The translations under genes were made by a program, and so were the position numbers. The notes under the pieces are model-generated. The model had not been told where the DNA came from and searched no databases. It saw nothing but the letters and a program-made list of their open reading frames with translations. From IMG/VR virus record IMGVR_UViG_3300048772_000090, positions 1 to 59,424 of that record: 59,424 nucleotides of DNA; one strand, given 5' to 3'. This document shows, piece after piece, positions 29,389 through 40,208 of this stretch (position 1 is its first letter; every line of letters begins with the position of its first letter). This DNA comes from a virus (lineage: Duplodnaviria > Caudoviricetes).

Positions 29389-29526
29389 TCGGTCGGAACA
29401 TACGCCTACGGTAATTTTACGTGCTCTACCACTGAGCTACGCTTCGCGGTGACCCGAAAAGCGGAAGGATTCGAACCTTCGTCCTCGTCCTTAGCATGGA
29501 AGTAACCGTAAACTTCACCAGACCGA
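29389..29526 (-). ncRNA. YrlA-like Y RNA 1 (tRNA-mimic domain)
   Basis: Terminal stem TCGGTC/GACCGA; T-arm GAAGG-TTCGAAT-CCTTC precedes D-arm TAGCTCAGTGGTAGAGC (permuted order typical of YrlA); next to the Ro60 gene. Confidence 0.85.
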
Positions 29527-29534
29527 ACATCTAA

Positions 29535-29666
29535 GAGCCGAGAACATTCGTAACAATCTCCCTTGCGGGAATCTTGCCTTACCAATTAGGCGAGTAGTTA
29601 GATTTCTCTAACCCCATTGGAATTGAACCAATAATAGAGATGTAATTGTTACTACCACTACGGCTC
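29535..29666 (-). ncRNA. YrlA-like Y RNA 2
   Basis: Terminal stem GAGCCG/CGGCTC; T-arm TTGG-TTCAATT-CCAA then D-arm GCCTAATTGGTAAGGC; shares TAC.TC and TGTTC motifs with RNA 1. Confidence 0.75.
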
Positions 29667-29683
29667 GTACTTATAAAACTTTT

Positions 29684-29763
29684 GTCGAAGGAACAAGCGA
29701 ACTCGGAAGGTGCCCGAAGGCTTTTCTGTTCAAGAGAAGTATCCGAACTCTTCACCATTCGAC
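29684..29763 (-). ncRNA. short Y-RNA-like RNA lacking the tRNA domain
   Basis: GTCGAA/TTCGAC stem with the same TGGTGAAG, TACTTC and TGTTCC motifs as RNA 1. Confidence 0.65.
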
Positions 29764-29784
29764 AAAACTTGTACTTCTAAACTT

Positions 29785-29910
29785 CGCGAAGCAGACGGGA
29801 GTCGAAACCCGTAGGAGTCATTAAAAGTGGCCCCTGTCACCATCCAAGAGAGACTTTCGAAAGTCCGTCTCGTCAACCTGCAATCTGGGTATCAGCCAGA
29901 AGGCTTCGCG
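29785..29910 (-). ncRNA. unknown tRNA-like structured RNA
   Basis: 8-bp terminal stem CGCGAAGC/GCTTCGCG, 3' T-arm-like ACGGG-TTTCGACT-CCCGT, three internal hairpins. Confidence 0.5.
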
Positions 29911-29952
29911 CTATTCCCCGCCGTCGCGGGAAACTCAAACTCAACATTCACA

Positions 29953-29981
29953 ACTCTAAGCGCAGTTCTAAAACTTGTCAA
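29953..29981 (-). promoter_or_regulatory. sigma70-like promoter of the Y RNA-Ro60 unit (TTGACA-17-TAGAGT)
   Basis: Perfect -35 with 17-nt spacer. Confidence 0.65.
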
Positions 29982-30015
29982 GCAAAATCTGCGCTTTATT
30001 TCCACAAATCTAAAA

Positions 30016-30090
30016 TGGAGCGGGAGAAGGGAATTGAACCCTCTGCGCCTTGCTTGGAAGGCAAGCACTCTACCGATGAGCTACTCCCGC
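30016..30090 (-). tRNA. tRNA-Gly(TCC)
   Basis: Cloverleaf; CTTGC-CTTCCAA-GCAAG; CCA. Confidence 0.92.
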
Positions 30091-30351
30091 CTATTTCTTC
30101 ACAACGTCCTTCCAGAACTCCACAACACTCTCAATCCCTGTATCGTCCATCAACTCGAAATCTACTTCCCCGATGGACTCTATCGAAAGGTCGCAGCATG
30201 TATCCACTTTGGCCTCCAGAGCCTTGCAGCGCATCACCTCTAGCTTCTCTTGGCACTGCATGACGGCGGATACCATATCGTCGGCACGGAAGACCATATC
30301 CGGGACAGGAGTACACTCACAACCTGATAACGTAGCAATGTAAACTGGCAT
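30091..30351 (-). CDS. hypothetical protein within tRNA operon 1
   Basis: GGGAGG RBS, start MPVYIATL, 86 aa. Confidence 0.6.
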   Translation of the reverse strand: MPVYIATLSGCECTPVPDMVFRADDMVSAVMQCQEKLEVMRCKALEAKVDTCCDLSIESIGEVDFELMDDTGIESVVEFWKDVVKK

Positions 30352-30387
30352 GTTTGAATCCTCCCGAACAATAGTAACACTGAAACA

Positions 30388-30465
30388 TGGTAGCGGATAC
30401 TGGACTTGAACCAGTCGCCTCAGCCTTATCAAGACTGCGCTCTTCTCAGGATGAGCTAATCCGCC
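30388..30465 (-). tRNA. tRNA-Ile(GAT)
   Basis: CAGTC-TTGATAA-GGCTG; CCA. Confidence 0.9.
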
Positions 30466-30477
30466 ACGTGAAATGGA

Positions 30478-30553
30478 TGGTACCCAGTAGAGGAGTCGAA
30501 CCTCTCTAGCCAGTTTGTAGGACTGGAGCCTGAAACCGATAGGCTAACCGGGC
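30478..30553 (-). tRNA. tRNA-Val(TAC), C33
   Basis: CCAGT-CCTACAA-ACTGG; CCA. Confidence 0.8.
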
Positions 30554-30558
30554 GAATA

Positions 30559-30634
30559 TGGCGCGAACGGGGAGATTCGAACTCCTGTCTCACTGATCGA
30601 CAATCAGTTGCTTTGGCCACTAAGCTACGTTCGC
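30559..30634 (-). tRNA. tRNA-Asp(GTC)
   Basis: ACTGA-TTGTCGA-TCAGT; G73; CCA. Confidence 0.88.
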
Positions 30635-30706
30635 AAAACTGTTAGGCCGTTCAGTCGCATCCAGAAGGGATATTCATTGATCCCTGCGCTTACTAGACCC
30701 GTAAAA

Positions 30707-30783
30707 TGGTGGGCGATGGCAGATTCGAACTGCCGACTGAAATTTAGGAAATTTCTGTGATTATCCAATTTCACCAAACGCCC
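30707..30783 (-). tRNA. tRNA-Arg(CCT)
   Basis: GAAAT-TTCCTAA-ATTTC; CCA. Confidence 0.88.
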
Positions 30784-30792
30784 AAAACTTGA

Positions 30793-30868
30793 TGGTCGAA
30801 CCGCTGGGATTCAGACCCAGAACTGTGTCTTCGGAGGGCACTGTGATATTCAGTTTCACCACGGCTCG
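30793..30868 (-). tRNA. tRNA-Arg(CCG)
   Basis: GTGCC-CTCCGAA-GACAC; atypical T-loop TCTGAAT; CCA. Confidence 0.8.
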
Positions 30869-30871
30869 AAA

Positions 30872-30945
30872 TGGTGCCGCAAAGGATACTCGAAATCCTG
30901 TTGGATGCGTGAGAAGCATCTATCCTACCCTTGAATGATTGCGGC
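30872..30945 (-). tRNA. tRNA-Glu(CTC)
   Basis: GATGC-TTCTCAC-GCATC; CCA. Confidence 0.85.
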
Positions 30946-30946
30946 A

Positions 30947-31024
30947 TGGTCCGAAGGACGAGACTCTAACTCGCTAGGAACGGCTTGAAGGGCCGCTTGC
31001 TCGATACACTTTGCATTCCTTCGG
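30947..31024 (-). tRNA. tRNA-Glu(TTC), C33, atypical D/T loops
   Basis: GCGGC-CCTTCAA-GCCGT; acceptor CCGAAGG/CCTTCGG; CCA. Confidence 0.65.
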
Positions 31025-31032
31025 ATAAAAGA

Positions 31033-31107
31033 TGGAGCATCCACCCCGAATCGAACGGGGATCACAACCTTAGAAGGGAAGTCTCTATCCGCTTGAGCTA
31101 TGGACGC
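31033..31107 (-). tRNA. tRNA-Arg(TCT)
   Basis: Loop CTTCTAA with a weak anticodon stem; CCA. Confidence 0.75.
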
Positions 31108-31108
31108 A

Positions 31109-31187
31109 TGGTCCCCGTGGCATGGATTTGAACCTGCGGCCTCTACCTTAAAGGGGTAGCACTCTAACCGGACTGAGTTACACGGGG
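31109..31187 (-). tRNA. tRNA-Lys(TTT), C33
   Basis: CTACC-CCTTTAA-GGTAG; CCA. Confidence 0.8.
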
Positions 31188-31193
31188 ATAAAC

Positions 31194-31268
31194 TGGTGGC
31201 AGCGCTGGGACTTTAACCCAGATCGAACTCCTTAAGAGGGAGGCATGTTGAATTAACACCACGCTGCC
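31194..31268 (-). tRNA. tRNA-Lys(CTT)
   Basis: CCTCC-CTCTTAA-GGAGT; T-loop TTAAAGT; CCA. Confidence 0.8.
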
Positions 31269-31270
31269 AT

Positions 31271-31364
31271 TGGTACCGGAAGAGGGAATCGAACCCGTCT
31301 AGCATCGGTTATCGACCGACTATATGAGGAGTATAAGGCCCCGCTGTGTCCTACACTTTCCGGC
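31271..31364 (-). tRNA. atypical tRNA-like RNA, probably Ile(TAT), with a long extra arm
   Basis: Acceptor GCCGGAA/TTCCGGT-ACCA and TTCGATT T-loop; tiny D-arm; loop CTTATAC; extra arm GTCGG-TCGATAA-CCGAT. Confidence 0.5.
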
Positions 31365-31367
31365 GAA

Positions 31368-31461
31368 TCTTAGGTGGTCGCTATAGCCTCCCCGCCTCAG
31401 TTTTGGGGCGATGTTGCTATTACAGAGCAGTCCTATCCCGTCGAATAGGAAGCGCCCAAGA
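31368..31461 (-). ncRNA. unknown structured RNA between tRNAs
   Basis: Terminal stem TCTTGGGCG/CACCTAAGA with internal hairpins. Confidence 0.4.
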
Positions 31462-31539
31462 TGGTGCCAGTGGACAGGATTGAACTGTCGGCCTCGTCGT
31501 TATGGGTGACGCGCTCTAAGCCTACTGAGCTACACTGGC
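31462..31539 (-). tRNA. tRNA-Met/Ile2(CAT), C33
   Basis: CGTCA-CCCATAA-CGACG; CCA. Confidence 0.82.
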
Positions 31540-31540
31540 A

Positions 31541-31615
31541 TGGCAGGGGAGGACGGAACCGAACCGTCAATTTCGGTTTTGGAGACCGAGAGTTTTCCTG
31601 TTAGCCTACTCCCCT
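31541..31615 (-). tRNA. tRNA-Trp(CCA)
   Basis: TCGGT-CTCCAAA-ACCGA; A1-U72, G73; CCA. Confidence 0.88.
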
Positions 31616-31625
31616 AAAAATTCAT

Positions 31626-31642
31626 TTCAATTGTCAACGAGC
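31626..31642 (-). promoter_or_regulatory. boxA-like antitermination element, operon 1
   Basis: GCTCGTTGACAATTGAA directly after the attenuator; no -10 at promoter spacing. Confidence 0.5.
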
Positions 31643-31699
31643 AAAAGTAAACCCCAGCCTGAGCCGGGGTCTGATAAAGCGGTGTTGCCGACAGACCCC
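31643..31699 (-). terminator. attenuator 1: antiterminator GGGGTCTG/CAGACCCC versus terminator ACCCCGGC-TCAG-GCTGGGGT-TTACTTTT
   Basis: Two mutually exclusive stems sharing ACCCC, starting right after the leader stop codon. Confidence 0.8.
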
Positions 31700-31771
31700 T
31701 CAAACGCGCATATCCCACCCGTCCCGCTTAATGCGGACTATGGTTTCGACGTTTTTGGTTGATCTGGTCAT
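31700..31771 (-). CDS. leader peptide 1 MTRSTKNVETIVRIKRDGWDMRV
   Basis: AGGA RBS; 23 codons plus TGA abutting the antiterminator; codons match downstream tRNAs. Confidence 0.75.
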   Translation of the reverse strand: MTRSTKNVETIVRIKRDGWDMRV

Positions 31772-31841
31772 CGTTTAATCCTAAATTGTGCTCTCATTAC
31801 CCACCGAGCAGGTGCATCCATGCTTTTACTGCACTTGAGAA

Positions 31842-31871
31842 ACTATATCACACGTCAAACTGAAAGCGCAA
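31842..31871 (-). promoter_or_regulatory. promoter of tRNA operon 1 (TTGCGC-18-TGnTATAGT)
   Basis: Extended -10; same 18-nt spacing as the early promoters. Confidence 0.55.
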
Positions 31872-31882
31872 GGAATATTTTA

Positions 31883-31961
31883 TGGTGCGCCCGGAGGGAC
31901 TTGAACCCCCTGCCTTTTGGTTCGTAGCCAAACGCTCTGAATCCAGATGAGCTACGGGCGC
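31883..31961 (-). tRNA. tRNA-Arg(ACG)
   Basis: TTTGG-CTACGAA-CCAAA; CCA. Confidence 0.92.
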
Positions 31962-31971
31962 AAACTTTTAT

Positions 31972-32061
31972 GAGGCGGCTTCATGCTACCCGGTCTAGCC
32001 GGACACGTGACCCGCTCTGACTGGCCCGGAGTTTCCTCCGCGTCTAGGCAGCGACCGCCTC
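31972..32061 (-). ncRNA. unknown multibranch structured RNA
   Basis: Terminal stem GAGGCGG/CCGCCTC; internal CGGAG-GAAA-CTCCG and CCGG-CTAGA-CCGG. Confidence 0.45.
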
Positions 32062-32077
32062 TGTAGTCACTCAAGCA

Positions 32078-32186
32078 TGGTCGGGTTTGCGAGTCTGCCA
32101 GTCTCGCACTAGAGCGCCCCATGCGCCCCGTGCTTTGATCCGTCCGTCCCGAAGGCTCTGGATCAGGCCGTTTACACTAGCACCCG
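32078..32186 (-). tRNA. atypical tRNA-Pro(TGG)-like RNA with a hairpin inserted in the D-loop
   Basis: C1-G72/A73 Pro-type end CCCGACCA; GGGCG-CATGGGG-CGCTC; TGATCC...GGATCA insert; 9-nt T-loop. Confidence 0.5.
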
Positions 32187-32194
32187 GTAAATGA

Positions 32195-32271
32195 TGGTCG
32201 GAGAGGTGAGATTCGAACTCACGTCATCTCGCTCCCAGGGCGAGTGCCTGAAGCCTCTAGGCTACTCTCCG
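32195..32271 (-). tRNA. tRNA-Pro(TGG), C33
   Basis: CTCGC-CCTGGGA-GCGAG; C1-G72; CCA. Confidence 0.88.
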
Positions 32272-32276
32272 ACTAT

Positions 32277-32352
32277 TGGTGCCAACTCAGCGAATCGAAC
32301 GCTGTTCCATTCCTCTTCAGGGAATTGTAATCACCAGACCTACGCAGTTGGC
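32277..32352 (-). tRNA. tRNA-Phe(GAA)
   Basis: ATTCC-CTGAAGA-GGAAT; CCA. Confidence 0.82.
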
Positions 32353-32360
32353 AAATCATT

Positions 32361-32435
32361 TGGTGGAGACGGAGGGAATCAAACCCTCAACTTCGGAGTG
32401 CAAAACCGATGTGTTCTCATTAGCACCACGTCCCC
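32361..32435 (-). tRNA. tRNA-Ala(TGC)
   Basis: G3:U70; loop TTTGCAC; CCA. Confidence 0.88.
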
Positions 32436-32439
32436 AAAC

Positions 32440-32607
32440 TTATTTACCGAAAATCTTTTCCATCAATTCCTTCATCCACGGATACTCTTCCGGCTTGCAG
32501 AGGATCATAGGGTACTCATACTTATACGGACCTAGAGTCTCCGCATACGCTTTCTGAAGCATCTCTAGTGTGACCTGACCCGTATTCTCCTTCGCGTCGT
32601 AGTACAT
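32440..32607 (-). CDS. 55-aa hypothetical protein (MYYDAKENTG...KIFGK)
   Basis: AGGAGG RBS; fills the gap between tRNA-His and tRNA-Ala; below the ORF-track cutoff. Confidence 0.6.
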   Translation of the reverse strand: MYYDAKENTGQVTLEMLQKAYAETLGPYKYEYPMILCKPEEYPWMKELMEKIFGK

Positions 32608-32627
32608 TGCTTCCTCCTAACAAACTT

Positions 32628-32703
32628 TGGGGCGGGATGTGGTACTCGAAACCACGTAGACTGATGCCACAGATCAGCGCCTTACCTCTCGGCCAATCCC
32701 ACC
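32628..32703 (-). tRNA. tRNA-His(GTG)
   Basis: G-1:C73; CTGAT-CTGTGGC-ATCAG; CCA. Confidence 0.88.
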
Positions 32704-32710
32704 ACATCTT

Positions 32711-32792
32711 TGGAGCACGGAGAGGGATTCGAACCCCCGGTGTTGGATGCCTGCTTACAAAACAGGTGCAGTCGCCGCTGTGCCATCCGTGC
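32711..32792 (-). tRNA. tRNA-Thr(TGT), enlarged variable loop
   Basis: CCTGT-TTTGTAA-GCAGG; CCA. Confidence 0.85.
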
Positions 32793-32902
32793 AAATCTTA
32801 ACCGGAATCTCTCTTCCGCAGTCACGCCACTAGACTCGCTGCTCGGACTTTCCGAGTGTGCTATACCCCGGACGGGGTTACGTCGGGCAGGTGTCGCCCA
32901 TT

Positions 32903-32978
32903 TGGAGCCGTCTGCGAGAATTGAACTCGCTGCCTCCGAATTACCAATCCGGTGCTCTTCCATACGAGCTACGACGGC
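32903..32978 (-). tRNA. tRNA-Thr(GGT)
   Basis: CCGGA-TTGGTAA-TTCGG; CCA. Confidence 0.88.
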
Positions 32979-33521
32979 CTATCCTACGGTTGCGTACTTC
33001 GTGTCTCCAGCGTTGTCAAAGTACAGATAAGGACGCCACTTTTCATCCTCAGCGCCCATCGACTTCAAGATGAAACGTGATGTATGTATCGAGGCCGCAC
33101 GAGGCTTGTGGATCAACTTCATCCCCGCTTCCTCTGGTGTCCTGTCCGCCTTACGACGATTGTCCTCGACACAGCAGGCTACAAGGTTACTCCATGTGTC
33201 CTTTCCTCCTTGCGCCCGAGGTACAATGTGATCCAGCGTCAACTTAGACGGATGGAAAACAATGCCACAGTACATGCAAGTGTTCCGATCCCGCAAGAAG
33301 ATGTTCTTCCTGCTCAAAATCTGGACGCGAACAGGAATGTACCGAAACTCCTTCAAGCGAATTACCGAAGGGAACATGATTCCGGGATAAATCTCTTGTC
33401 CTGTGTGCTCTTGAATAACAGCCCGATCCTTGCAAACCAATGTGAGAGCACGTCGGCAGGAACGAATGCTGATCGGCTCAAATGAGCTATTTAAAACTAG
33501 CGTTGCTTTGTTCATGTTCAT
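32979..33521 (-). CDS. HNH endonuclease
   Basis: TLVLNSSFEP, RDRNTCMYCG, LTLDHIVPRAQGG, WSNLVACC, KADRTPEEAGM. Confidence 0.9.
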   Translation of the reverse strand: MNMNKATLVLNSSFEPISIRSCRRALTLVCKDRAVIQEHTGQEIYPGIMFPSVIRLKEFRYIPVRVQILSRKNIFLRDRNTCMYCGIVFHPSKLTLDHIVPRAQGGKDTWSNLVACCVEDNRRKADRTPEEAGMKLIHKPRAASIHTSRFILKSMGAEDEKWRPYLYFDNAGDTKYATVG

Positions 33522-33565
33522 AACGCACTCTCCTTTCTGTTTACTTTACCACTAACTGCGCATCC

Positions 33566-33639
33566 AGCCTACGTTATTTGGGTGACGGATTAAATGTCCG
33601 CCTGTACGTCCCGTCGCATCTCGCGGTACAGCGTAGGCT
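33566..33639 (-). ncRNA. unknown structured RNA
   Basis: Terminal stem AGCCTACG/CGTAGGCT enclosing two hairpins. Confidence 0.4.
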
Positions 33640-33647
33640 AGAAACTT

Positions 33648-33724
33648 TGGAGCAGGCGTCCCGAGTCGAACGGGAATCGTCTTTCTTACGAGGAAAGTGC
33701 ATAAGCCACTTCTGCCACGCCTGC
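33648..33724 (-). tRNA. tRNA-Thr(CGT)
   Basis: CTTTC-CTCGTAA-GAAAG; CCA. Confidence 0.88.
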
Positions 33725-33736
33725 GTAAATCTAAGA

Positions 33737-33811
33737 TGGAGCGGGGTATCGGGATTGAACCGATGATCTTCGGTCTGGCAGACCAATGCTTTGCCACTCA
33801 GCTAACCCCGC
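33737..33811 (-). tRNA. tRNA-Gly(GCC)
   Basis: TTGGT-CTGCCAG-ACCGA; U73; CCA. Confidence 0.9.
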
Positions 33812-33816
33812 AAAAA

Positions 33817-33890
33817 TGGTTCGGTCGCTCCGAGTCGGACGGAGATAGAGAGTGTCAAAGGCTCTCGAATTGCCATTATTCGACGACCGA
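33817..33890 (-). tRNA. tRNA-Gln(TTG)
   Basis: Loop CTTTGAC; U1-A72; CCA. Confidence 0.8.
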
Positions 33891-33896
33891 TCAAAC

Positions 33897-33971
33897 TGGT
33901 TCCGGGTGGAGGATTCTGACCCCCATCTTTAGGTTCAGAGCCTAAAATCCTCACATTTGGACGAACCCGGA
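33897..33971 (-). tRNA. tRNA-Gln(CTG)
   Basis: TTAGG-CTCTGAA-CCTAA; U1-A72; CCA. Confidence 0.82.
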
Positions 33972-33982
33972 TCAATCCTTGC

Positions 33983-34000
33983 TATTCAGTTGTCAAACTC
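33983..34000 (-). promoter_or_regulatory. boxA-like antitermination element, operon 2
   Basis: GAGTTTGACAACTGAATA resembles rrn-spacer TTTGAAAACTGAATA; no -10 at promoter spacing. Confidence 0.5.
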
Positions 34001-34120
34001 CCGATCCCACTAGGGGCGGTGAAACGAAACTTTGCGACGGTGGCTATAACCTGCCCGCTGCCACCGCCGAAGTCCACGTCTGTAGTTAGCGGCCTACCTA
34101 CTCCGGGTCGTATCAAACTT

Positions 34121-34197
34121 TGGCTCATCAGGTCGGCCTCGGACCGACATCCCCGAAATTAACAGTTTCGTGCTCTGCCTACTTGAGCTACCGATGA
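34121..34197 (-). tRNA. tRNA-Asn(GTT)
   Basis: CGAAA-CTGTTAA-TTTCG; G73; CCA. Confidence 0.85.
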
Positions 34198-34207
34198 ACA
34201 TTACTGC

Positions 34208-34296
34208 AAAACTTTGGGGTCACCAGATTTTCTCCGGTGACCCCATCTACTGCTCGCTGTTTTATAAATGTCAGTCGAGAGAAGGACGGCCACCGG
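34208..34296 (-). terminator. attenuator 2: antiterminator CCGGTGGCC/GGTCACCGG versus hairpin GGGGTCACCGGA-GAAAA-TCTGGTGACCCC-AAAGTTTT
   Basis: Mutually exclusive stems; the U-tract is imperfect. Confidence 0.7.
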
Positions 34297-34369
34297 GCGC
34301 ATGATTACCGCGCGGCTGTGCTTGCGTTGCCGCTGGGGTAAAGGTTCGCGTTGTGGCTGCGTTCTTCAT
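34271..34369 (-). CDS. leader peptide 2 MKNAATTRTFTPAATQAQPRGNHAPGGRPSLD
   Basis: ATG a few nt after the predicted TSS; codons 3-29 all encode amino acids of the downstream tRNA set. Confidence 0.8.
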   Translation of the reverse strand: MKNAATTRTFTPAATQAQPRGNHAPGGRPSLD

Positions 34370-34381
34370 GTCTCTTTTGTC

Positions 34382-34410
34382 AATGTACCCGCGTTGAGAT
34401 TATTTGTCAA
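34382..34410 (-). promoter_or_regulatory. promoter of tRNA operon 2 (TTGACA-17-TACATT)
   Basis: Near-consensus sigma70. Confidence 0.75.
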
Positions 34411-34417
34411 CTGCTAT

Positions 34418-35078
34418 TTACCAGATTCCGCGAACATAGTCCTTGTAACGCCAACTCTTGCCAGTAATGTGGTCGTTTACGTCCCCGTCCTTCACGCGGA
34501 TGGTACGGCGTTTGTCGCCACGCTGTCCACTTCCAACCTGCTTCTTCCTATCGGCTGAAATGCTCCCGTGCCTATGTTCCTTATCGGCAGCGAACAGTCT
34601 TGCGGTCAGGATCGCTAGAGCAATATCCTTGTTCCGCTTCTGTGATCGCTCGTCTTCGCAGCGAACCGTTAGGCCCGTAGGAATATGCTTGAGGATGACG
34701 CAGGTTTCGAGTTTGTTGGCGTTCTGTCCGCCCTTGCCTCCTGAACGGGTAGTGGAGTATTCCAGATCGTTAGGGGATACAGAAAATTCGTATGGCTGTG
34801 GTTCTGGGAAGGTAGCGACCGTAACCGTAGAGGTTTGGACTCGTCCACTACGCTCTGTAGGCGGGATTCTCTGCCATCTGTGGCCGCCTGACTCGTTAGC
34901 AAATATCTTCTCAACTCCCTTTCCGGTAACTCGGAAAACAACAATTCCCGGTCTTTCCTCAGTCAATTCGAGGTCAAAGCCCCCTCCGCTCCGCAAGTTT
35001 TGTGTAGATGCGGAATTGGTCGATCACAAGTAATTTAGCATCCATTCCTCCCTCAGCAGCCCTAATCTCAATTATCAT
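34418..35078 (-). CDS. short class-I peptide chain release factor (lacks domain 1), expressed through a +1 frameshift; join(35078..34977, 34975..34418), about 219 aa
   Basis: AGGAG RBS; MIIEIRAAEGG (RF domain 2 start) in frame 0; ESGGHRWQRIPPTE...RVQTS, GGKGGQNANK, RSQKRN and RGDKRRT in frame +1; junction CGGAGG-GGG-CTT-TGA-C. Confidence 0.88.
34973..34988 (-). promoter_or_regulatory. prfB-type programmed +1 frameshift signal
   Basis: Internal SD GGAGG, 3-nt spacer, CTT TGA C; same layout as the RF2 signal AGGGGG-TAT-CTT-TGA-C. Confidence 0.88.
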
Positions 35079-35228
35079 TTCATTTCTCCTATTCGCGTCA
35101 GGATAAAACCCGAATGGCCCCATTTCTGAGGCCACTCGCGGCTCGTGCAAGGACATTATGTACGCAGGCACAATTAGGAGCGGTACGCTCCCTGGTTGAT
35201 GCGGCCTTTCGACCGCGAGATAAGCATA

Positions 35229-35579
35229 CTATTCACATGGGGTTAGGTCAAGGTAATAGTTCTTACCCGGAACAAACGTGTCGCAGACATCGGGATTATC
35301 AACAAGGAACGTCATGGTTCCGCTTGGCGTTGCGGCAGCGAAACTAACATCCTCTGGATTACTTGTGTCGTACTGCGCGGCTAACCGCACGTTCTGAGCA
35401 AACTTTCCAGTAGAGATGTACTTGACTTTCTTACCATTATCCGTGTACTCAGTTCCAACCAGAGCAGCATAGTCCTCCGGCGTTACTGAGTCCTCGAAAA
35501 CTCGCTTTGAAACGGCGTTGTCAGTCAGCTCTACGCTAACCACACGGAACTTGCAGCGGGTACGAATCGCTTCTGGCAT
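35229..35579 (-). CDS. hypothetical protein
   Basis: AGGAG RBS; RCKFRV...FAAATPSG...PGKNYYLDLTP. Confidence 0.75.
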   Translation of the reverse strand: MPEAIRTRCKFRVVSVELTDNAVSKRVFEDSVTPEDYAALVGTEYTDNGKKVKYISTGKFAQNVRLAAQYDTSNPEDVSFAAATPSGTMTFLVDNPDVCDTFVPGKNYYLDLTPCE

Positions 35580-35675
35580 AAACTCTCCTAAATTTGGTTG
35601 GGAAGCACCGCTATGCTTGCGGCATCACTGAGCCACGCCAAGGTTATCCTGCGGCTCACATGGACAGCATAACAT

Positions 35676-35714
35676 AAAACAGCAATGGCTCCCACTTAAG
35701 TTGAGAGCCACTGC
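35676..35714 (-). terminator. intrinsic terminator closing the ncRNA cluster
   Basis: GCAGTGGCTCTCA-ACTTAAG-TGGGAGCCATTGC-TGTTTT. Confidence 0.7.
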
Positions 35715-35742
35715 CGGTCGTGCCTTCTATTTATAGGAAATC

Positions 35743-36789
35743 TTTGCAGCGGGTCGGATTCCTATACCGGCATGGCGGTCTGCACTAGGTGATGCCTCTT
35801 TCGAGGGCTTATGCTGGCTCTCGCTGCCGCGTGGGTTTCTCACCCATCCGCCGAACTGCTAATCCCTTCCGGGACTCGGACGACCTAGCCAAGTTAGCGG
35901 GTTCCTCCCCGCCGCCACTGCAAACTTTGCCCGTTCGTATTGAACGGAGCCGAAGTCACCAACAATCGAGTGCTGGACTCCTACTCCGATCTCTGCGCCA
36001 CCCCATCTTGGGTACTCGCGTCAGGATTGCAGATCGTTTCGCTTGGAATTCTTTGCAGCGTTCTGCTCTCTCGTTACTCCTCGCGGCGTCTAGAAGCTAC
36101 CGATTCTGGAAGACCGAACACCTCAAAAGAGTGGAGTCTTGGGGTCTAAAGGAGTGTCCTACCACTCTTCCGCTGCAAACCTTTGAGGCGCGGCTCCGAT
36201 TCTGGCTAACCAGTCACCGTTTTATCCTTTGCGGGAGAGACCTGTCAGTTCCGCCTCAAACTTTTCCCGTCCCAAACCGATAAGAGAAGGTGGCCCCTCG
36301 GACGGCCACTAACCGCCCATTCTCTCCGGCTCGACTTAGCAGACCGATAAGGCGTTCTGAACAGCCTCCGGCCCGCGACAGGAAACTTTATAATCCCCTA
36401 AAATGTGGGGCCGTTCGGCCTTGCAGATACTAGGCTTCGACCGATCTTACAGCTTATTATGGACGATCAATCGGCTTGGCGTCCAGCTATTACCTCTCCA
36501 CCGTTCTCTTCCTACTAGGCCCCTTCGTCGGGGGTATTCTAAAATCCAGCGGCGTTGCGTCATTGTCGCTGCGAAAGTATGCCTACGTTCGCGTTCTCGG
36601 ATGGCCCCGGATTTCTCCGTCTGACGCTATCCCTGATGTTTGCTTGCCGCTGAAACTCAAACTATGCTCGTCTTTCCGAGCCGCCAAGGGACGTTACCGT
36701 TACCCTACGCGTCTTTCCGTGTCTCGTCACTCCCGTTACTGAGGACGTTTTGAATGGCCGTCTATGAACGTGAGTCGAAGTCTCCCAGC
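35743..36789 (-). ncRNA. tandem cluster of at least six unknown structured RNAs
   Basis: No RBS-supported ORF; consecutive units closed by 7-11-bp terminal stems, several separated by the AAAGTTT-type spacer also seen after tRNA CCA ends. Confidence 0.6.
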
Positions 36790-36797
36790 CAGATCAA

Positions 36798-36867
36798 TGG
36801 TTGCGCAGGGAAGAGTTGAACTTCCGTCCTTGGCCTTATGAGAGCTAGGCATACCGCTATCCGCGCA
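36798..36867 (-). tRNA. 70-nt tRNA(CAT)-like RNA with a reduced D-arm
   Basis: Acceptor TGCGCGG/CTGCGCA-ACCA, loop CTCATAA, T-arm GGAAG-TTCAACT-CTTCC. Confidence 0.55.
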
Positions 36868-36878
36868 GGACAAATATC

Positions 36879-37460
36879 TCATCCTGCGCCAACGATGTCA
36901 AGTGGTATTTTATAGAATATGGTGCGTTGAGCAGGAGTCGAACCTGCGGTGTTTGCTCGTAGAGTCACAGATTTACAGTCTGCTGCCTTCGCCACTGGGC
37001 CACCAACGCATAACTTTTCATATTTCTTTGGAGAACGACGTTTTTGCCGACACTCCCTGCAATCTGTTTCAAGTCCTCTACGCTTTGACCTATCCTTCGT
37101 AAAATCTCCAACTGGAAGCCAATCCTGATGCCCATAACACCATGCCATTCCGGGAGGATCAATGCGTCTCAAATGGGCGTTGGCGTCCATTGCTCGGAGA
37201 TCACGTTTGGTTTTCTCTAAATGGCAACCGTGACAACGTGCTTTGCATTTCTCCAATTCTTCCAATCTTTTAGCATCACCCCAACTCCATACAGTGTGGC
37301 TCACTTTTGTCGAAGGATCAACATGATCTAGTTCAAGATTGTCCCAAGTCCCGCAATCCACACATGGACCGTTCTCTGCAAACCACTTTCTCCTACGTTC
37401 TTTGACGACTCGCTCATACCACGCCTTTTGTGCTGCCTTCCACTTCACCATATCTCTCAT
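36879..37460 (-). CDS. HNH endonuclease; the reading frame runs through tRNA-Tyr
   Basis: CVDCG..NLELDHVDP...CHGCH plus a second CYGH/CREC zinc finger. Confidence 0.8.
   Translation of the reverse strand: MRDMVKWKAAQKAWYERVVKERRRKWFAENGPCVDCGTWDNLELDHVDPSTKVSHTVWSWGDAKRLEELEKCKARCHGCHLEKTKRDLRAMDANAHLRRIDPPGMAWCYGHQDWLPVGDFTKDRSKRRGLETDCRECRQKRRSPKKYEKLCVGGPVAKAADCKSVTLRANTAGSTPAQRTIFYKIPLDIVGAG
36920..37009 (-). tRNA. tRNA-Tyr(GTA)
   Basis: GCAGA-CTGTAAA-TCTGT; long variable region; CCA. Confidence 0.9.
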
Positions 37461-37466
37461 GGCGGA

Positions 37467-37495
37467 AGTATACAGCTATAACGGCGGAAATACAA
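37467..37495 (-). promoter_or_regulatory. promoter for a leaderless HNH transcript (TTGTAT-17-TATACT, ATG 6 nt downstream)
   Basis: Spacing places +1 on the A of the ATG at 37460. Confidence 0.55.
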
Positions 37496-37511
37496 CAACT
37501 AAACACATTAA

Positions 37512-37604
37512 TGGAGGAAGAAGCGAGATTTGAACTCGCGGTGCCGGTCACCCGGACACTCCCGTTTTCAAAACGGGCGCTTTAGACCACTCAGCCATCC
37601 TTCC
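37512..37604 (-). tRNA. tRNA-Ser(TGA)
   Basis: CCCGT-TTTGAAA-ACGGG; long variable arm; CCA. Confidence 0.9.
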
Positions 37605-37608
37605 AAAC

Positions 37609-37694
37609 TGGCGGTAGGGAAGCGATTTAAACGCTTAATACCTTTCGGTATGCTCGGTTTCGAATCGAGGTGTCCCATCAATGACAGCCCTACC
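37609..37694 (-). tRNA. tRNA-Ser(CGA)
   Basis: Loop TTCGAAA; long variable arm; atypical D/T loops; CCA. Confidence 0.75.
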
Positions 37695-37698
37695 AAAC

Positions 37699-37788
37699 TG
37701 GCAGTGAGGATGGGATTCCAACCCACGATACCCTTACAGGTATTCTTGCTTTCCAAGCAAGCGCCTTCGAGCACTCGGCCACCTCACT
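37699..37788 (-). tRNA. tRNA-Ser(GGA)
   Basis: CTTGC-TTGGAAA-GCAAG; long variable arm; CCA. Confidence 0.85.
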
Positions 37789-37793
37789 GTAAA

Positions 37794-37884
37794 TGGCGAT
37801 GAGACTGAGATTCGAACTCAGGACACCCTTTTGAGGTGCTTCGTCTTAGCAGGACGATGCCTTAAGCCACTCGGCCATCTCACC
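37794..37884 (-). tRNA. tRNA-Ser(GCT)
   Basis: TCGTC-CTGCTAA-GACGA; long variable arm; CCA. Confidence 0.92.
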
Positions 37885-37893
37885 GTAAAACTT

Positions 37894-37970
37894 TGGTGCG
37901 CGACCGGGAAATCGAATCCCGAAACACCTCTGTTTGAAAAAGGCGGCTTTGCCTATTTGCCTAGTCGCGC
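37894..37970 (-). tRNA. tRNA-Leu(CAA), short variable loop
   Basis: CCTTT-TTCAAAC-AGAGG; A73; CCA. Confidence 0.82.
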
Positions 37971-37979
37971 ATAACCTTT

Positions 37980-38056
37980 TGGTGCCAGTGGGGGAAATCG
38001 AATCCCCAAACATATCGCCCTAAACGATACCGCTTTGCCTATTTGCGTACACTGGC
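37980..38056 (-). tRNA. tRNA-Leu(TAG), short variable loop
   Basis: TATCG-TTTAGGG-CGATA; CCA. Confidence 0.82.
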
Positions 38057-38064
38057 ATAAAACT

Positions 38065-38143
38065 TGGTGCCGGGAGCGGAAATCGAATCCGCACTGTCAC
38101 AGCCTTCTTAGGACTGCCGCTTTGCCATTTTGCGTACCCCGGC
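38065..38143 (-). tRNA. tRNA-Leu(AAG), A34, short variable loop
   Basis: CAGTC-CTAAGAA-GGCTG; CCA. Confidence 0.8.
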
Positions 38144-38149
38144 TAAACT

Positions 38150-38227
38150 TGGTGCGCTAGGGCGAATTCGAATCGCCAAACTCTTCCGTCTGAGGAAAGA
38201 AGGTATACCAATTCCCATCACTAGCGC
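38150..38227 (-). tRNA. tRNA-Leu(CAG), short variable loop
   Basis: CTTTC-CTCAGAC-GGAAG; CCA. Confidence 0.82.
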
Positions 38228-38230
38228 ATT

Positions 38231-38245
38231 TAATTGTCAAAGAAC
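38231..38245 (-). promoter_or_regulatory. boxA-like antitermination element, operon 3
   Basis: GTTCTTTGACAATTA, close to boxA GCTCTTTAACAA. Confidence 0.6.
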
Positions 38246-38322
38246 TGGAGAGCGGTGTCAGATTTCAACTGACGATTAGCAGTTTTGCAGACTGCTGCGT
38301 TTGAGCACTTCGCCAACCGCTC
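38246..38322 (-). tRNA. tRNA-Cys(GCA)
   Basis: GCAGT-CTGCAAA-ACTGC; U73; CCA. Confidence 0.88.
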
Positions 38323-38323
38323 A

Positions 38324-38403
38324 TGGTGTGGGCATCGGGATTCGAACCCGAAGAATAGACAATTTTTAGGACTGTCCGGCTATACCTGTTCGCCTATACC
38401 CAC
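38324..38403 (-). tRNA. tRNA-Leu(TAA), C33, short variable region
   Basis: ACAGT-CCTAAAA-ATTGT; CCA. Confidence 0.78.
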
Positions 38404-38503
38404 AAACGAAAACCCCTCCGTTTTGAGTGGAGGGGTTCGTCACAACCTTGGGAGGATTACACCTTATATCCCTCTCCAACGCGCAAGCGAACCCCCGCTC
38501 AAA
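38404..38503 (-). terminator. attenuator 3: antiterminator TTTGAG-CG-GGGGTTCG/CGAACCCC-TCCA-CTCAAA versus terminator AACCCCTCC-loop-GGAGGGGTT-TTCGTTT
   Basis: Mutually exclusive stems; the terminator ends directly at the 5' end of tRNA-Leu. Confidence 0.82.
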
Positions 38504-38547
38504 CTGAGCGATGACAGGCAATACGAGTTGGATAAGAGGTTCTTCAT
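38464..38547 (-). CDS. leader peptide 3 MKNLLSNSYCLSSLSLSGGSLARWRGI
   Basis: 13 of codons 4-17 are Leu/Ser/Tyr/Cys, the amino acids of the downstream tRNAs. Confidence 0.82.
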   Translation of the reverse strand: MKNLLSNSYCLSSLSLSGGSLARWRGI

Positions 38548-38563
38548 ATCAGATCGCAAAGTT

Positions 38564-38592
38564 AGATTACATTCCTGCCGAGCGGTTGTCAA
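38564..38592 (-). promoter_or_regulatory. promoter of tRNA operon 3 (TTGACA-17-TAATCT)
   Basis: Near-consensus sigma70. Confidence 0.72.
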
Positions 38593-38599
38593 GCGGTTT

Positions 38600-39016
38600 T
38601 TACGGAGTTGGCGTTCCGAAAGTGCTTGCGATCTCTGTCGGCACCTCAACGGCAGCAACCACTGTCACTGTGTCCGTGCCGCTCAGACCATACACTGAGT
38701 CTCCGTAGGTGTCCGTTACGGTTCCCGGTGCTACTGCTGTCCATGTTGCTGTGCCGTCGCCATTATCAACGACGCTTGCGATGGTTGGATCGCTGCTTAC
38801 TACGGTGATGTCTGCGCCAACAACAGGAACGTTTCCTGCGGCGTTCGACTCTGTTACCGTCTCGATGACGGTCTGGCCTACCGTAAGGGTGATTGGCATG
38901 GTAACTCCTTCAAAATGACTGTGGATTTGGGTGGGACGGTGGGAACGAAGGATTTCAAGCACTTCTTTTAGTTCGTGCCTGATTTCCTCCAAAAGATGGA
39001 TTTCATGGTGAGTCAT
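38600..39016 (-). CDS. Ig-like (Big-2-like) domain protein; an internal start at MPITLTVG is possible
   Basis: Thr/Val-rich, VSSDPTIASV...TAVAPGTVT. Confidence 0.6.
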   Translation of the reverse strand: MTHHEIHLLEEIRHELKEVLEILRSHRPTQIHSHFEGVTMPITLTVGQTVIETVTESNAAGNVPVVGADITVVSSDPTIASVVDNGDGTATWTAVAPGTVTDTYGDSVYGLSGTDTVTVVAAVEVPTEIASTFGTPTP

Positions 39017-39253
39017 AGGCGTATCATACTCCTGTTCCGGTGGATTTTTCGGTTAATTTCTGCTGTTTTTCCCATGGCCACTGGCCAAAATCGACCACAA
39101 AGAACGGAGGCCTATCGTGGAAGTATGGTGACGGTTTGTCGGGATGCTCAATTGCGAAATAGCCGGTTGCTACCTCAACCCGATCCCCAACCTTGTGCAG
39201 CCAAGAACCGTTAGGGTACTCGGCGGAAGGACGCATAAAAGTATCTTTAATCT

Positions 39254-39490
39254 CTACCAAGGCATCCATTTTCTCTCCTCTCCGAAGAATTTCTCTATTC
39301 CTAGATACTCCCTGTACTCTTGGATCGAAGAATGACCGCGCTGATTATTACATTTTTTGCAGGCATCTACGAACTTGTCTCCACCGAAAAACTTAGGGAT
39401 GAAATGATCTACTGTCCGCTGTCTTGGATGGTCGCGTTTGGTAAGCAAGAGCTTACAGCCGCAGAACCAGCACTGATTCCATTGAGCCAT
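39254..39490 (-). CDS. small HNH endonuclease
   Basis: CWFCG...TVDHFIPK..GG...ACKKCNNQRG. Confidence 0.8.
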   Translation of the reverse strand: MAQWNQCWFCGCKLLLTKRDHPRQRTVDHFIPKFFGGDKFVDACKKCNNQRGHSSIQEYREYLGIEKFFGEERKWMPW

Positions 39491-40208
39491 ATATCCTCCT
39501 TTCTCCTCGTCTCAGGCCACCACTTGTCATTAAACCCTTCCATAATTTCCTCTCCTCTATCGAGTCCAAGATGTCTTGCATTCCTGACCGCTCGCCTGAT
39601 TTCGGAAGGATCGCACTGGTGGATACTAAACTCGTACAAATCTTCCGCTTGCCGTATTCGGTTGTGAACGAGATATACGGTTTCACATGCCACGCAACGA
39701 TACCCGAAGAAGAAGCATTGAACATCCCCGTCCGCCATCTTTACCTGCGTCATCAAAAGCCCGTGGATGAGTGCAGGAGACTGATACATCAAAAGTTCCA
39801 TTTGGGTTGGGGCTACGACCTGCGACGTATCAACAATATTAGTTCCTACGCCTACAGCCCCTCCAAGCACGTTGGCGTAGCGGTTGTTGAAGACTTGTAT
39901 GGTCGGCGGCAGGAATTCAGGTATTTTTCTCACGCGATAACCTCAAAAATCCAGTATTGCTCGTCCTCGCTTGGAGTGACACAAAATCTATGATGGTAGC
40001 CCCTCCCAGGAAAAGGACACATCTTAAAACGGAAGTTCGGGGTGCAGACGACATACCACGGCCCTGTTCCGAGTCTCCCGCAAATGGTAAAAGAATCATG
40101 CGCTTCCTTGAGAATTCCCCTCGCGTAATCCGCCCATGTCAAAGATTGGCCGAGCAACCGTCGAGCAACCGTTATGTCTGGAGAAACGAGCATAGCGCAA
40201 CTTTAGCA

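What the first reader, a model, noticed from the sequence alone, without database searches (positions are those of the whole stretch)
38404..38592. Leader 3 is a codon inventory of the Leu/Ser/Tyr/Cys operon
Seen: ATG AAG AAC CTC TTA TCC AAC TCG TAT TGC CTG TCA TCG CTC AGT TTG AGC GGG GGT TCG... 13 of codons 4-17 are Leu/Ser/Tyr/Cys. They give a cognate codon for 10 of the 11 downstream tRNAs (Leu AAG/TAA/CAG/CAA, Ser GGA/CGA/TGA/GCT, Tyr, Cys); only CTA is absent. The sensing codons end where the GGGGGTTCG strand (38488-38496) begins, which can capture the 5' arm of the terminator. Inference: a stall upstream frees that strand and gives read-through.
Basis: partly seen in the sequence, partly recalled or inferred. 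Interest (0 to 1): 0.9.

Follow-up and report, generated by a model that had tools for sequence, protein, structure and literature searches.

The report
Leader-peptide attenuator controlling phage tRNA operon
A large phage from peat appears to switch a block of its own tRNA genes on only when a tiny upstream test gene, written in exactly the codons those tRNAs read, is translated too slowly, which would be a new use of a classic bacterial control device.

Summary
On the minus strand, a sigma-70-like promoter is followed by a 27-codon ORF (38547-38464), a hairpin with a T-tract (38441-38404), then tRNA-Leu(taa) at 38403. Thirteen of codons 4-17 are Leu/Ser/Tyr/Cys. All 10 ARAGORN-called downstream tRNAs can read a leader codon. 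Among 463 small ORFs in the window, no other exceeds 10 of 14.

The window has two more such leaders, before the Asn-to-Arg and Trp-to-Gly tRNA blocks. The 3x3 codon-versus-block table gives chi-square 42, P=1.6e-8.

Related jumbo-phage contigs carry ten further leaders, three of them homologues of this one; a fourth homologue was found later. Their codon content matches their own tRNA blocks (1 of 5040 permutations; frame-specific, 181/370 against 80 and 86).

The strand at 38496-38488 starts a 65-nt antiterminator hairpin (-32.2 kcal/mol, z=-4.6). In masked-ribosome folding, stalls at codons 3-14 preserve it. Ribosomes further on favour the terminator.

Best reading: ribosome-mediated attenuation of a tRNA operon, sensing tRNA supply. 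Translation and termination are untested. Eight literature searches found no prior description.

The parts
38587..38592 (-). -35 box (TTGACA) of the leader promoter
   Evidence: Read directly. It starts 8 nt after the stop of the upstream ORF (38600-39016). A TTGACA box is also read upstream of three homologous leaders; alignment A2 puts it in register only for G001.
38564..38569 (-). -10-like box, 17 nt after the -35 box and 16 nt before the ATG
   Evidence: Read directly. It matches 3 of 6 consensus positions, so the scanner did not list it. The transcription start is inferred, not shown.
38464..38547 (-). Leader ORF, 27 codons plus stop
   Evidence: Frame specificity: 15 of 26 codons are in the set in frame 0, against 6 and 5 in the other two frames.
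38497..38538 (-). Sensing segment: codons 4-17, 13 of 14 Leu/Ser/Tyr/Cys
   Evidence: It is unique among 463 small ORFs of the window.
38432..38496 (-). Antiterminator hairpin. Its 5' strand is codons 18-28 of the ORF, starting with the 9-nt strand 38496-38488. Its 3' strand runs into the terminator's 5' arm. The stop codon lies near its tip.
   Evidence: -32.2 kcal/mol against a shuffle mean of -18.3 (sd 3.0), z=-4.6.
38404..38441 (-). Intrinsic-terminator-like hairpin and T-tract. Core stem 38437-38429 with 38419-38411, 9-nt loop 38428-38420, T-tract 38412-38404. It abuts the first base of tRNA-Leu(taa).
   Evidence: -15.4 kcal/mol (core) to -19.0 kcal/mol (extended). Sequence read.
36920..38403 (-). 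Regulated block: tRNA-Leu(taa), Cys(gca), Leu(cag), Leu(aag), Leu(tag), Leu(caa), Ser(gct), Ser(gga), a tRNA-like element at 37698-37605, Ser(tga), an ORF with an HNH-like motif at 37460-36879, and Tyr(gta)
   Evidence: ARAGORN and Rfam. My scan finds no terminator-like hairpin inside the block. The tRNA-like element was examined.
34215..34410 (-). Sister element 'Leader 2': promoter 34410-34382, ORF 34369-34271 (32 codons), terminator 34245-34215. It precedes Asn, Gln x2, Gly(gcc), Thr x3, His, Ala, Phe, Pro and Arg(acg).
   Evidence: It has a run of 27 consecutive in-set codons (next best in the window is 12). All 12 of 12 tRNAs have a readable codon.
31650..31771 (-). Sister element 'Leader 1': ORF 31771-31700 (23 codons), terminator 31671-31650. 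It precedes Trp, Met, Lys x2, Arg x3, Glu, Asp, Val, Ile and Gly(tcc).
   Evidence: It has an in-set run of 13 (next best 9). Nine of 12 tRNAs have a readable codon.

Best explanation
The element is a ribosome-mediated (leader-peptide) transcription attenuator that gates a phage tRNA operon.

Proposed mechanism:
1. Host RNA polymerase starts at the sigma-70-like promoter, and a ribosome begins the 27-codon ORF.
2. Codons 4-17 test the Leu, Ser, Tyr and Cys tRNAs that the operon encodes.
3. If these aminoacyl-tRNAs are plentiful, the ribosome runs into codons 18-28. That melts the 5' strand of the antiterminator hairpin (38496-38432). The terminator (38441-38404) then folds, and transcription stops one base before tRNA-Leu(taa).
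4. If any of them is scarce, the ribosome stalls upstream. The antiterminator holds the terminator's 5' arm, and polymerase reads into the tRNA genes.
5. The new tRNAs relieve the stall. The loop is therefore a negative feedback on tRNA supply.

Shown here: the sequence anatomy, the statistics of the codon match, the alternative pairings, and their recurrence in relatives. Inferred: translation of the ORF, termination at the hairpin, the direction of the switch, and its physiological trigger.
For: 1. Anatomy in the right order: promoter, short ORF, terminator, then the first tRNA with no spacer.

2. Codon match. Thirteen of 14 codons are in the set, unique among 463 small ORFs. All 10 called tRNAs can read a leader codon.

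3. Three leaders partition the array. The leader-by-block table of codons is [[15,5,5],[2,24,2],[1,6,10]], chi-square 42.1, P=1.6e-8. Inside the tRNA blocks themselves my scan finds no terminator-like hairpin; strong ones follow the three leader ORFs, a weaker one (-10.9 kcal/mol) overlaps the end of the Leader 1 ORF, and three more lie in the Tyr-to-Asn spacer.

4. Relatives. Thirteen leaders from the window and from contigs G001, G002, G003 and L020 were tested against their own tRNA sets. Seven family representatives were permuted, and 1 of 5040 permutations reached the observed score. Five of the 7 score best with their own set. A fourteenth leader is in G005.

5. Frame specificity. In-set codons are 181/370 in frame against 80/370 and 86/370 out of frame. 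Frame 0 is the best forward frame in 13 of 13 leaders.

6. Coding constraint. The close relative L041 has a Leader 2 region only 80.6% identical, and its two indels are 3 and 9 nt, so the frame is kept.

7. Antiterminator. The upstream strand pairs with the terminator's 5' arm better than 500 shuffles at P<=0.05 in 7 of 11 leaders. Fisher combined P=3e-8, though the leaders are not independent. The paired sequences differ between homologues while pairing is kept.

8. Ribosome masking. In transcripts cut before the 3' arm, the 5' arm is held upstream while the A site is in the sensing codons (roughly 0.5-0.9 in most of the 11 leaders, with dips lower, for example within L020's run). It falls once the ribosome enters the last third of the ORF (roughly 0-0.5 in most, partly recovering near the stop in some). 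The fall lies near the end of the in-set run.
Against: - No Shine-Dalgarno sequence, and only about 10 nt of inferred 5' UTR. The transcription start is not mapped, and translation is not shown.
- The -10 box is weak (3 of 6).
- Equilibrium folding predicts the terminator regardless of ribosome position in 4 of 11 leaders (both sister leaders of the window, G001_YL and L020), and shows only a weak or narrow effect in G002_P, G002_VGA and G001_QHR. A kinetic argument is needed for these.
- For this leader the ribosome-free state is ambiguous. Terminator probability is 0.93 with one choice of transcript ends and 0.33 with another. The two folds lie at -57.0 and -57.2 kcal/mol.
- Stalls at codons 15-17 are predicted not to antiterminate.
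- With the short 9-nt arm, the duplex test for this leader alone is not significant (P=0.132). It is significant only with the 13-nt arm (P=0.034).
- In the four homologous leaders of G001, G002, G003 and G005, Ser codons are frequent, but no Ser tRNA lies in the block.
- Some tRNA clusters of G001 show no leader (L028, L029, L031). The scan found no leader in most of the more distant relatives either.
Confidence: 0.72

Rival explanations
1. The leader ORF is translated and senses the same tRNAs, but the output is not intrinsic termination. A stalled or absent ribosome would instead change Rho access, RNase cleavage or RNase P processing of the precursor, and the hairpin would mainly be a processing or stability element.
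For: The T-tract abuts the mature 5' end of the first tRNA. Leader 2's T-tract starts 4 nt after the stem, which is not ideal for an intrinsic terminator. A recurring AAAGTTT motif at tRNA boundaries suggests organised processing.
Against: Eleven of 13 leaders have a G+C-rich hairpin followed by a T-tract. The competing upstream pairing targets the 5' arm of that hairpin specifically. That design is the one expected for termination control.
Confidence: 0.12
2. The ORF is not translated. The region is a constitutive partial terminator or an RNA-only switch, and the codon pattern has some other cause.
For: There is no Shine-Dalgarno sequence and the 5' UTR is very short. There is no direct evidence of expression. 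RNA-library contigs were uninformative.
Against: The match is specific to the reading frame in 13 of 13 leaders. In-frame indels occur in a diverged relative. ORF length and stop position are conserved relative to the terminator. Rfam gives no T-box or other known RNA family at E<=1.
Confidence: 0.07
3. The small ORFs encode functional peptides, and their composition only happens to resemble the tRNA sets.
For: The C-terminal parts of homologous peptides are somewhat conserved.
Against: The conserved part coincides with the RNA helices. The N-terminal parts keep their composition rather than their sequence. Composition changes from family to family exactly as the downstream tRNA set changes.
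Confidence: 0.03
4. Chance: an accidental ORF in a spacer.
For: This leader taken alone, over the whole ORF, gives only a binomial P=1.6e-5.
Against: It is unique among 463 small ORFs. Three leaders in the window give P=1.6e-8. The pattern recurs in other phages.
Confidence: 0.01

Closest known systems
Leader-peptide attenuators of enterobacterial amino-acid operons (trpL, hisL, leuL, and the multivalent thrL and ilvL). This comparison is recalled from established knowledge, not from a call.
   Same: A promoter-proximal short ORF rich in regulatory codons. A terminator whose 5' arm can instead pair with an upstream strand. The position of the translating ribosome decides between the two. As in thrL and ilvL, several amino acids are sensed at once.
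   Different: The regulated genes are tRNAs, not biosynthetic enzymes, so the sensed molecule is the product itself. The sensing codons are an inventory of different codons, one or two per isoacceptor, rather than runs of one codon. There is no Shine-Dalgarno sequence. The antiterminator is one long hairpin that encloses the stop codon. It is a phage element.
pheST attenuator with the pheM leader, controlling phenylalanyl-tRNA synthetase in E. coli (recalled)
   Same: Ribosome-mediated attenuation controls a component of the translation apparatus in response to supply of the cognate aminoacyl-tRNA.
   Different: The product there is a synthetase for one amino acid. Here it is a block of 10 tRNAs for four amino acids.
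T-box riboswitches (recalled; Rfam family checked)
   Same: The tRNA status decides between a terminator and an antiterminator upstream of translation-related genes.
   Different: T-boxes bind uncharged tRNA directly with a single specifier codon and need no translation. No T-box match was found at E<=1 in 29000-40000. Here an ATG-to-stop frame carries the codons.
Leaderless polycysteine short ORFs acting as attenuators in mycobacteria (bioRxiv 10.1101/834739; I saw only the search listing and the start of the abstract)
   Same: Short ORFs with little or no 5' UTR and no Shine-Dalgarno sequence act as amino-acid-responsive attenuators of downstream genes.
   Different: They sense a single amino acid and control protein-coding operons in bacterial chromosomes.

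Membership tests
Ribosome-mediated (leader-peptide) transcription attenuator | Short ORF directly downstream of a promoter and upstream of the regulated genes | tested here: met
   TTGACA, 17 nt, a -10-like box, 16 nt, then the ATG; 27 codons. The same layout is seen in relatives.
Ribosome-mediated (leader-peptide) transcription attenuator | ORF enriched in codons whose decoding reports the regulated function | tested here: met
   Thirteen of 14 codons are in the set, unique among 463 small ORFs. The 3x3 table gives P=1.6e-8. The match is frame-specific.
Ribosome-mediated (leader-peptide) transcription attenuator | Intrinsic terminator between the leader ORF and the first regulated gene | tested here: met
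   Hairpin of -15.4 to -19.0 kcal/mol plus a T-tract at 38441-38404. Termination activity itself was not tested.
Ribosome-mediated (leader-peptide) transcription attenuator | Mutually exclusive antiterminator that uses the terminator's 5' arm | tested here: met
   Hairpin 38496-38432 at -32.2 kcal/mol, z=-4.6. Duplex with the 13-nt arm at -17.0 kcal/mol, P=0.034. Seven of 11 leaders reach P<=0.05.
Ribosome-mediated (leader-peptide) transcription attenuator | Ribosome position selects the structure: a stall gives read-through and full translation gives termination | tested here: inconclusive
   The thermodynamic model with a 31-nt footprint agrees for this leader. Four of 11 leaders show no effect at equilibrium. 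Kinetics cannot be computed here.
Ribosome-mediated (leader-peptide) transcription attenuator | Leader ORF is translated, coupled to transcription | not testable with these tools
   Only contigs of RNA libraries were available. There is no Shine-Dalgarno sequence.
Ribosome-mediated (leader-peptide) transcription attenuator | Regulated genes are amino-acid biosynthesis or synthetase genes, as in all classical members | tested here: not met
   The downstream genes are 10 tRNAs. This is the point of novelty rather than a failure of mechanism.
T-box riboswitch | Match to the T-box covariance model (specifier loop, T-box sequence) | tested here: not met
   No such hit among 45 matches at E<=1 in 29000-40000.

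The most novel reading that the evidence does not exclude
A clade of jumbo phages runs its tRNA genes as demand-driven operons. The tRNAs are sorted into blocks by amino acid, and each block is gated by its own leader ORF, which is a codon-by-codon test of exactly those tRNAs. The phage would then make a tRNA set only when the pool of that set (host plus phage) cannot keep a ribosome moving. Examples are late infection, after host tRNA decay, or when a host anticodon nuclease attacks. This would be the first ribosome-mediated attenuator whose output is the sensed molecule itself, and a built-in counter to tRNA-depleting defence.
Probability: 0.6. Interest if true: 0.92.

Novelty: new variant of a known kind. 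Interest (0 to 1): 0.85.

Why it matters
How phages regulate their own tRNA genes is largely unknown. tRNA operons are generally treated as promoter-controlled, not attenuated.

If this reading is right, it gives a simple, testable sensor of tRNA supply made of about 150 nt. It would explain why these phages sort tRNA genes into amino-acid blocks. It would link phage tRNA arrays to tRNA depletion during infection.

It also offers a portable part for synthetic biology: a multi-codon reporter of tRNA availability.

The mechanism class, leader-peptide attenuation, is classical. The target and the inventory design are new as far as eight full-text searches could tell.

Tried and rejected
- blastn of 38300-39100 against 50,697 phage records found no match.
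- The upstream ORF product (38600-39016) found no relatives in viral contigs: 26 stretches matched a pattern and none was confirmed.
- The simple promoter/terminator scan did not list this leader's promoter or terminator, so I wrote my own hairpin+T scan.
- tblastn of the RF-1-domain protein against phages found 76 records, all below 60% identity. The two best, LR745208 and LR745206 with 20 kb either side, hold no ARAGORN tRNA, so they say nothing about leaders.
- A generic scan of all stored loci gave only 27 promoter-less ORF+terminator+tRNA candidates and added only the L038-L041 variant of Leader 2. Most of the 80 metagenome loci are short contigs.
- Equilibrium folding with a masked ribosome fails to switch in several leaders with very stable terminators. 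I therefore also used transcripts truncated before the 3' arm. Neither is a kinetic simulation.
- RNA libraries: four metatranscriptome runs were available only as contigs. One contig spans 38224-38665, across the leader, the terminator and two tRNAs. Another ends at 38403. DNA carry-over cannot be excluded, and contigs cannot show starts, ends or levels, so I draw no conclusion.
- A four-sequence alignment of the homologous leaders (A2, 60% mean column identity) was too small and too poorly aligned in the terminator for column-wise covariation counts. I report helix-level covariation only.
- One scan timed out and was rerun faster.
The statistics were then computed from stored coordinates.

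Full report
**What is there**

The window is a 59,424-base virus record, estimated 63% complete. DNA runs labelled peat or permafrost metagenome hold it. ARAGORN finds 34 tRNA genes, all on the minus strand between 38403 and 30016.

Reading the minus strand upstream of the first tRNA gives this order:
- the stop of an upstream ORF (38600-39016);
- eight bases later, a TTGACA box (38592-38587);
- a 17-nt spacer and a weak -10-like box (38569-38564);
- 16 nt further on, an ATG (38547) opening a 27-codon ORF that stops at 38466-38464;
- 26 nt later, the core stem of a G+C-rich hairpin with a 9-nt loop and a T-tract (extended hairpin and tract 38441-38404);
- the T-tract ends one base before tRNA-Leu(taa).

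**Is the codon pattern more than chance?**

Codons 4-17 hold 13 Leu/Ser/Tyr/Cys codons of 14. I listed all 463 ATG ORFs of 15-60 codons in the six frames of the window. None other exceeds 10 of 14 for this amino-acid set.

The 10 tRNAs that ARAGORN and Rfam call downstream are Leu taa, cag, aag, tag and caa; Cys gca; Ser gct, gga and tga; and Tyr gta. All of them can read at least one leader codon by standard wobble, and 8 have their exact Watson-Crick codon.

Neither ARAGORN, even with relaxed thresholds, nor Rfam at E<=1 calls it.

**The context makes the case**

The spacers of the array hold two more elements of the same build.
- Leader 2 (ORF 34369-34271) precedes Asn, Gln, Gln, Gly(gcc), Thr x3, His, Ala, Phe, Pro and Arg(acg). 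It carries 27 consecutive codons for exactly these amino acids. The next best run in the window is 12.
- Leader 1 (ORF 31771-31700) precedes Trp, Met, Lys x2, Arg x3, Glu, Asp, Val, Ile and Gly(tcc). It has an in-set run of 13, and the next best is 9.

I assigned each leader codon to the block whose tRNA reads it. The 3x3 table is [[15,5,5],[2,24,2],[1,6,10]], chi-square 42.1, P=1.6e-8. Even the split Arg and Gly boxes follow the blocks in Leader 2. Inside the tRNA blocks themselves my scan finds no terminator-like hairpin; the strong ones follow the three leader ORFs, a weaker one overlaps the end of the Leader 1 ORF, and three lie in the Tyr-to-Asn spacer.

**Relatives**

The RF-1-domain protein encoded just upstream of Leader 2 retrieved 26 loci from viral contigs. 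It also retrieved the best 80 of 145 relatives from metagenome contigs.

I fetched the tRNA clusters of three related records: G001 with 455 kb and 64 tRNA matches, G002 with 170 kb and 32, and G003 with 75 kb and 9. These, with L020, hold ten further leader + terminator + tRNA units:
- three homologues of Leader 3, before Tyr and Leu tRNAs (a fourth, in G005, was found later and is counted separately, making fourteen in all);
- three leaders rich in Pro, Met and Phe, before Pro, Met and Phe tRNAs;
- two leaders rich in Val, Gly, Ala, Cys, Asp and Glu, before exactly those tRNAs;
- one leader with a Lys/Arg/His/Gln/Asn stretch, before those tRNAs;
- one leader rich in Thr, Lys, Gly and Met in an A+T-rich 482-kb phage.

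The fourth homologue of Leader 3 lies in G005, 463 kb.

I scored every leader against every tRNA set and permuted seven family representatives. The true pairing is reached by 1 of 5040 permutations, and 5 of the 7 score best with their own set.

The match exists only in the ORF's frame. In-set codons are 181/370 in frame against 80/370 and 86/370 out of frame, and frame 0 is the best forward frame in 13 of 13 leaders.

A metagenome contig (L041) carries the Leader 3 region identical over 217 of 217 bases. Its Leader 2 region is 80.6% identical and differs by two indels of 3 and 9 nt, so the frame is kept.

Not every cluster has a leader. Three clusters of G001 (L028, L029, L031) showed none within 330 nt. 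The scan found none in most of the more distant relatives.

In the four Leader 3 homologues, Ser codons remain frequent although the Ser tRNAs lie elsewhere in those genomes.

**Structure**

The strand 38496-38488 is the best partner of the terminator's 13-nt 5' arm: -17.0 kcal/mol, P=0.034 over 1000 shuffles. It forms the base of a 65-nt hairpin (38496-38432) of -32.2 kcal/mol, against a shuffle mean of -18.3 (z=-4.6). That is more stable than the terminator. With the shorter 9-nt arm, the test for this leader alone gives P=0.132.

Across 11 leaders with a scan-detected terminator, 7 reach P<=0.05. The other four give 0.074, 0.086, 0.132 and 0.279. The two remaining Pro-family leaders had no terminator by my scan.

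The homologues use different stem sequences, yet the leader strand stays complementary in each. The window's stem is C/T-rich, while those of G001, G002 and G003 are GCC-rich.

**Ribosome masking**

I masked 31 nt around an A-site codon.
- This leader, equilibrium fold: terminator probability is 0.93 without a ribosome, 0.10-0.78 for stalls at codons 3-14, and 0.98-0.99 from codon 15 to the stop.
- Transcripts cut before the 3' arm: the 5' arm is held upstream while the A site is in the sensing codons and is largely released once the ribosome enters the last third of the ORF. The fall is clear in most of the 11 leaders, weak in both sister leaders, and lies near the end of the in-set run.
- Limits: equilibrium folds do not switch for 4 leaders with very stable terminators. 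The ribosome-free state of this leader is ambiguous: 0.93 against 0.33 with other transcript ends, with folds at -57.0 and -57.2 kcal/mol. Stalls at codons 15-17 do not antiterminate in the model.

**Interpretation**

This is the architecture of a leader-peptide transcription attenuator, here gating tRNA genes. The sensed quantity, decoding speed at codons read by the operon's tRNAs, is supplied by the operon's own products. The predicted behaviour is therefore homeostatic.

What remains inferred: translation (no Shine-Dalgarno sequence and a short UTR, a trait shared by several of the leaders), termination, direction, and trigger.

Rivals are a translation-dependent but processing-based output, an untranslated RNA element, a functional peptide, and chance. 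They are weighed in the Rival explanations section, and none explains the frame-specific, block-specific codon content together with the arm-specific pairing.

**Comparison and novelty**

The closest known systems are the multivalent thr and ilv leaders and the pheST leader. These are recalled from established knowledge, not from a call. T-boxes work to the same end by a different sensor, and none is detected.

Eight full-text searches returned no description of leader-peptide attenuation of tRNA genes. The single 'tRNA operon' passage in PMC3082878 concerns supercoiling of a Salmonella promoter (passage read). Supplements were closed, and most subscription papers are outside the library.

I rate it a new variant of a known kind, of high interest. 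The finding is well supported in silico and experimentally untested.

Noticed in passing
window 34215-34410 and 31650-31771 (minus strand): Two further leader ORF + terminator units. They are matched to the Asn-to-Arg(acg) block and the Trp-to-Gly(tcc) block.
   Followed up: yes
window 31768-31821 (minus strand): A 17-codon ORF ends in an ATGA overlap with the start of Leader 1. It contains GTA and AGG, two of the three codon types that Leader 1 lacks for its block. It may be a tandem or coupled leader.
   Followed up: partly
window 27935-29326 (minus) and 29402-29512 (minus): A protein with TROVE/Ro60 and vWA domains (Pfam E=2.3e-13) lies next to a weak YrlA (Y RNA-like) match of 33.9 bits, below the gathering score of 69. 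This looks like a phage Ro60/Y-RNA pair beside the tRNA array.
   Followed up: no
window 34418-34996 (minus): A 192-aa protein with RF-1 and PCRF domains (a truncated release-factor-like protein) sits directly upstream of Leader 2. Relatives were found at 26 viral and at least 80 metagenome loci; 17 of the 26 viral loci hold ARAGORN tRNAs within 6 kb.
   Followed up: partly
window 35700-36800 (minus): About 1.1 kb has no convincing ORF and no Rfam hit. It contains repeated copies of a motif around AAAGTTT followed by GCAG, so it may be a structured RNA. AAAGTTT occurs 18 times in the window (9.45 expected). Eleven copies are on the minus strand of the tRNA region, and several abut tRNA ends (31962, 32622, 33642, 34115, 37888).
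   Followed up: partly
window 37605-37698, 36802-36866, 31269-31461 (minus): Three tRNA-like elements are missed by ARAGORN. One is Ser-CGA-like with an odd T loop. One scores 26.2 bits against the Rfam tRNA model, with a CAT anticodon by my reading, behind its own TTGACA promoter (36901-36873). One is a spacer ending in a T arm, acceptor strand and CCA.
   Followed up: partly
window 38065-38143 (minus); relatives L006, L026, L124: ARAGORN calls tRNAs with A at position 34: Leu-aag in the window, and Ile-aat, Asn-att and Phe-aaa in relatives. These are unusual for bacteria and their phages.
   Followed up: no
window 32979-33521 and 36879-37460 (minus): An HNH endonuclease gene (Pfam E=6.9e-14) and a second ORF with an HNH-like Cys/His motif (no Pfam hit) are inserted inside the tRNA blocks. 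Relatives have similar small ORFs between their tRNAs.
   Followed up: no
L029 949-1149 (minus strand of G001 25400-27000): The 455-kb relative has two adjacent tRNAs with anticodon CTA (amber-reading), which ARAGORN labels Pyl. This hints at stop-codon suppression in that phage.
   Followed up: no
window 31616-31645 (minus): A TTGACA box lies between the Leader 1 terminator and tRNA-Trp, 16 nt before the tRNA. It may be a bypass promoter giving basal expression.
   Followed up: no
L041 171-387 against L041 4763-4976: In one metagenome contig the Leader 3 region is 100% identical to the window, while the Leader 2 region is 80.6% identical and the release-factor-like protein 95%. Divergence along the array is mosaic.
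   Followed up: partly
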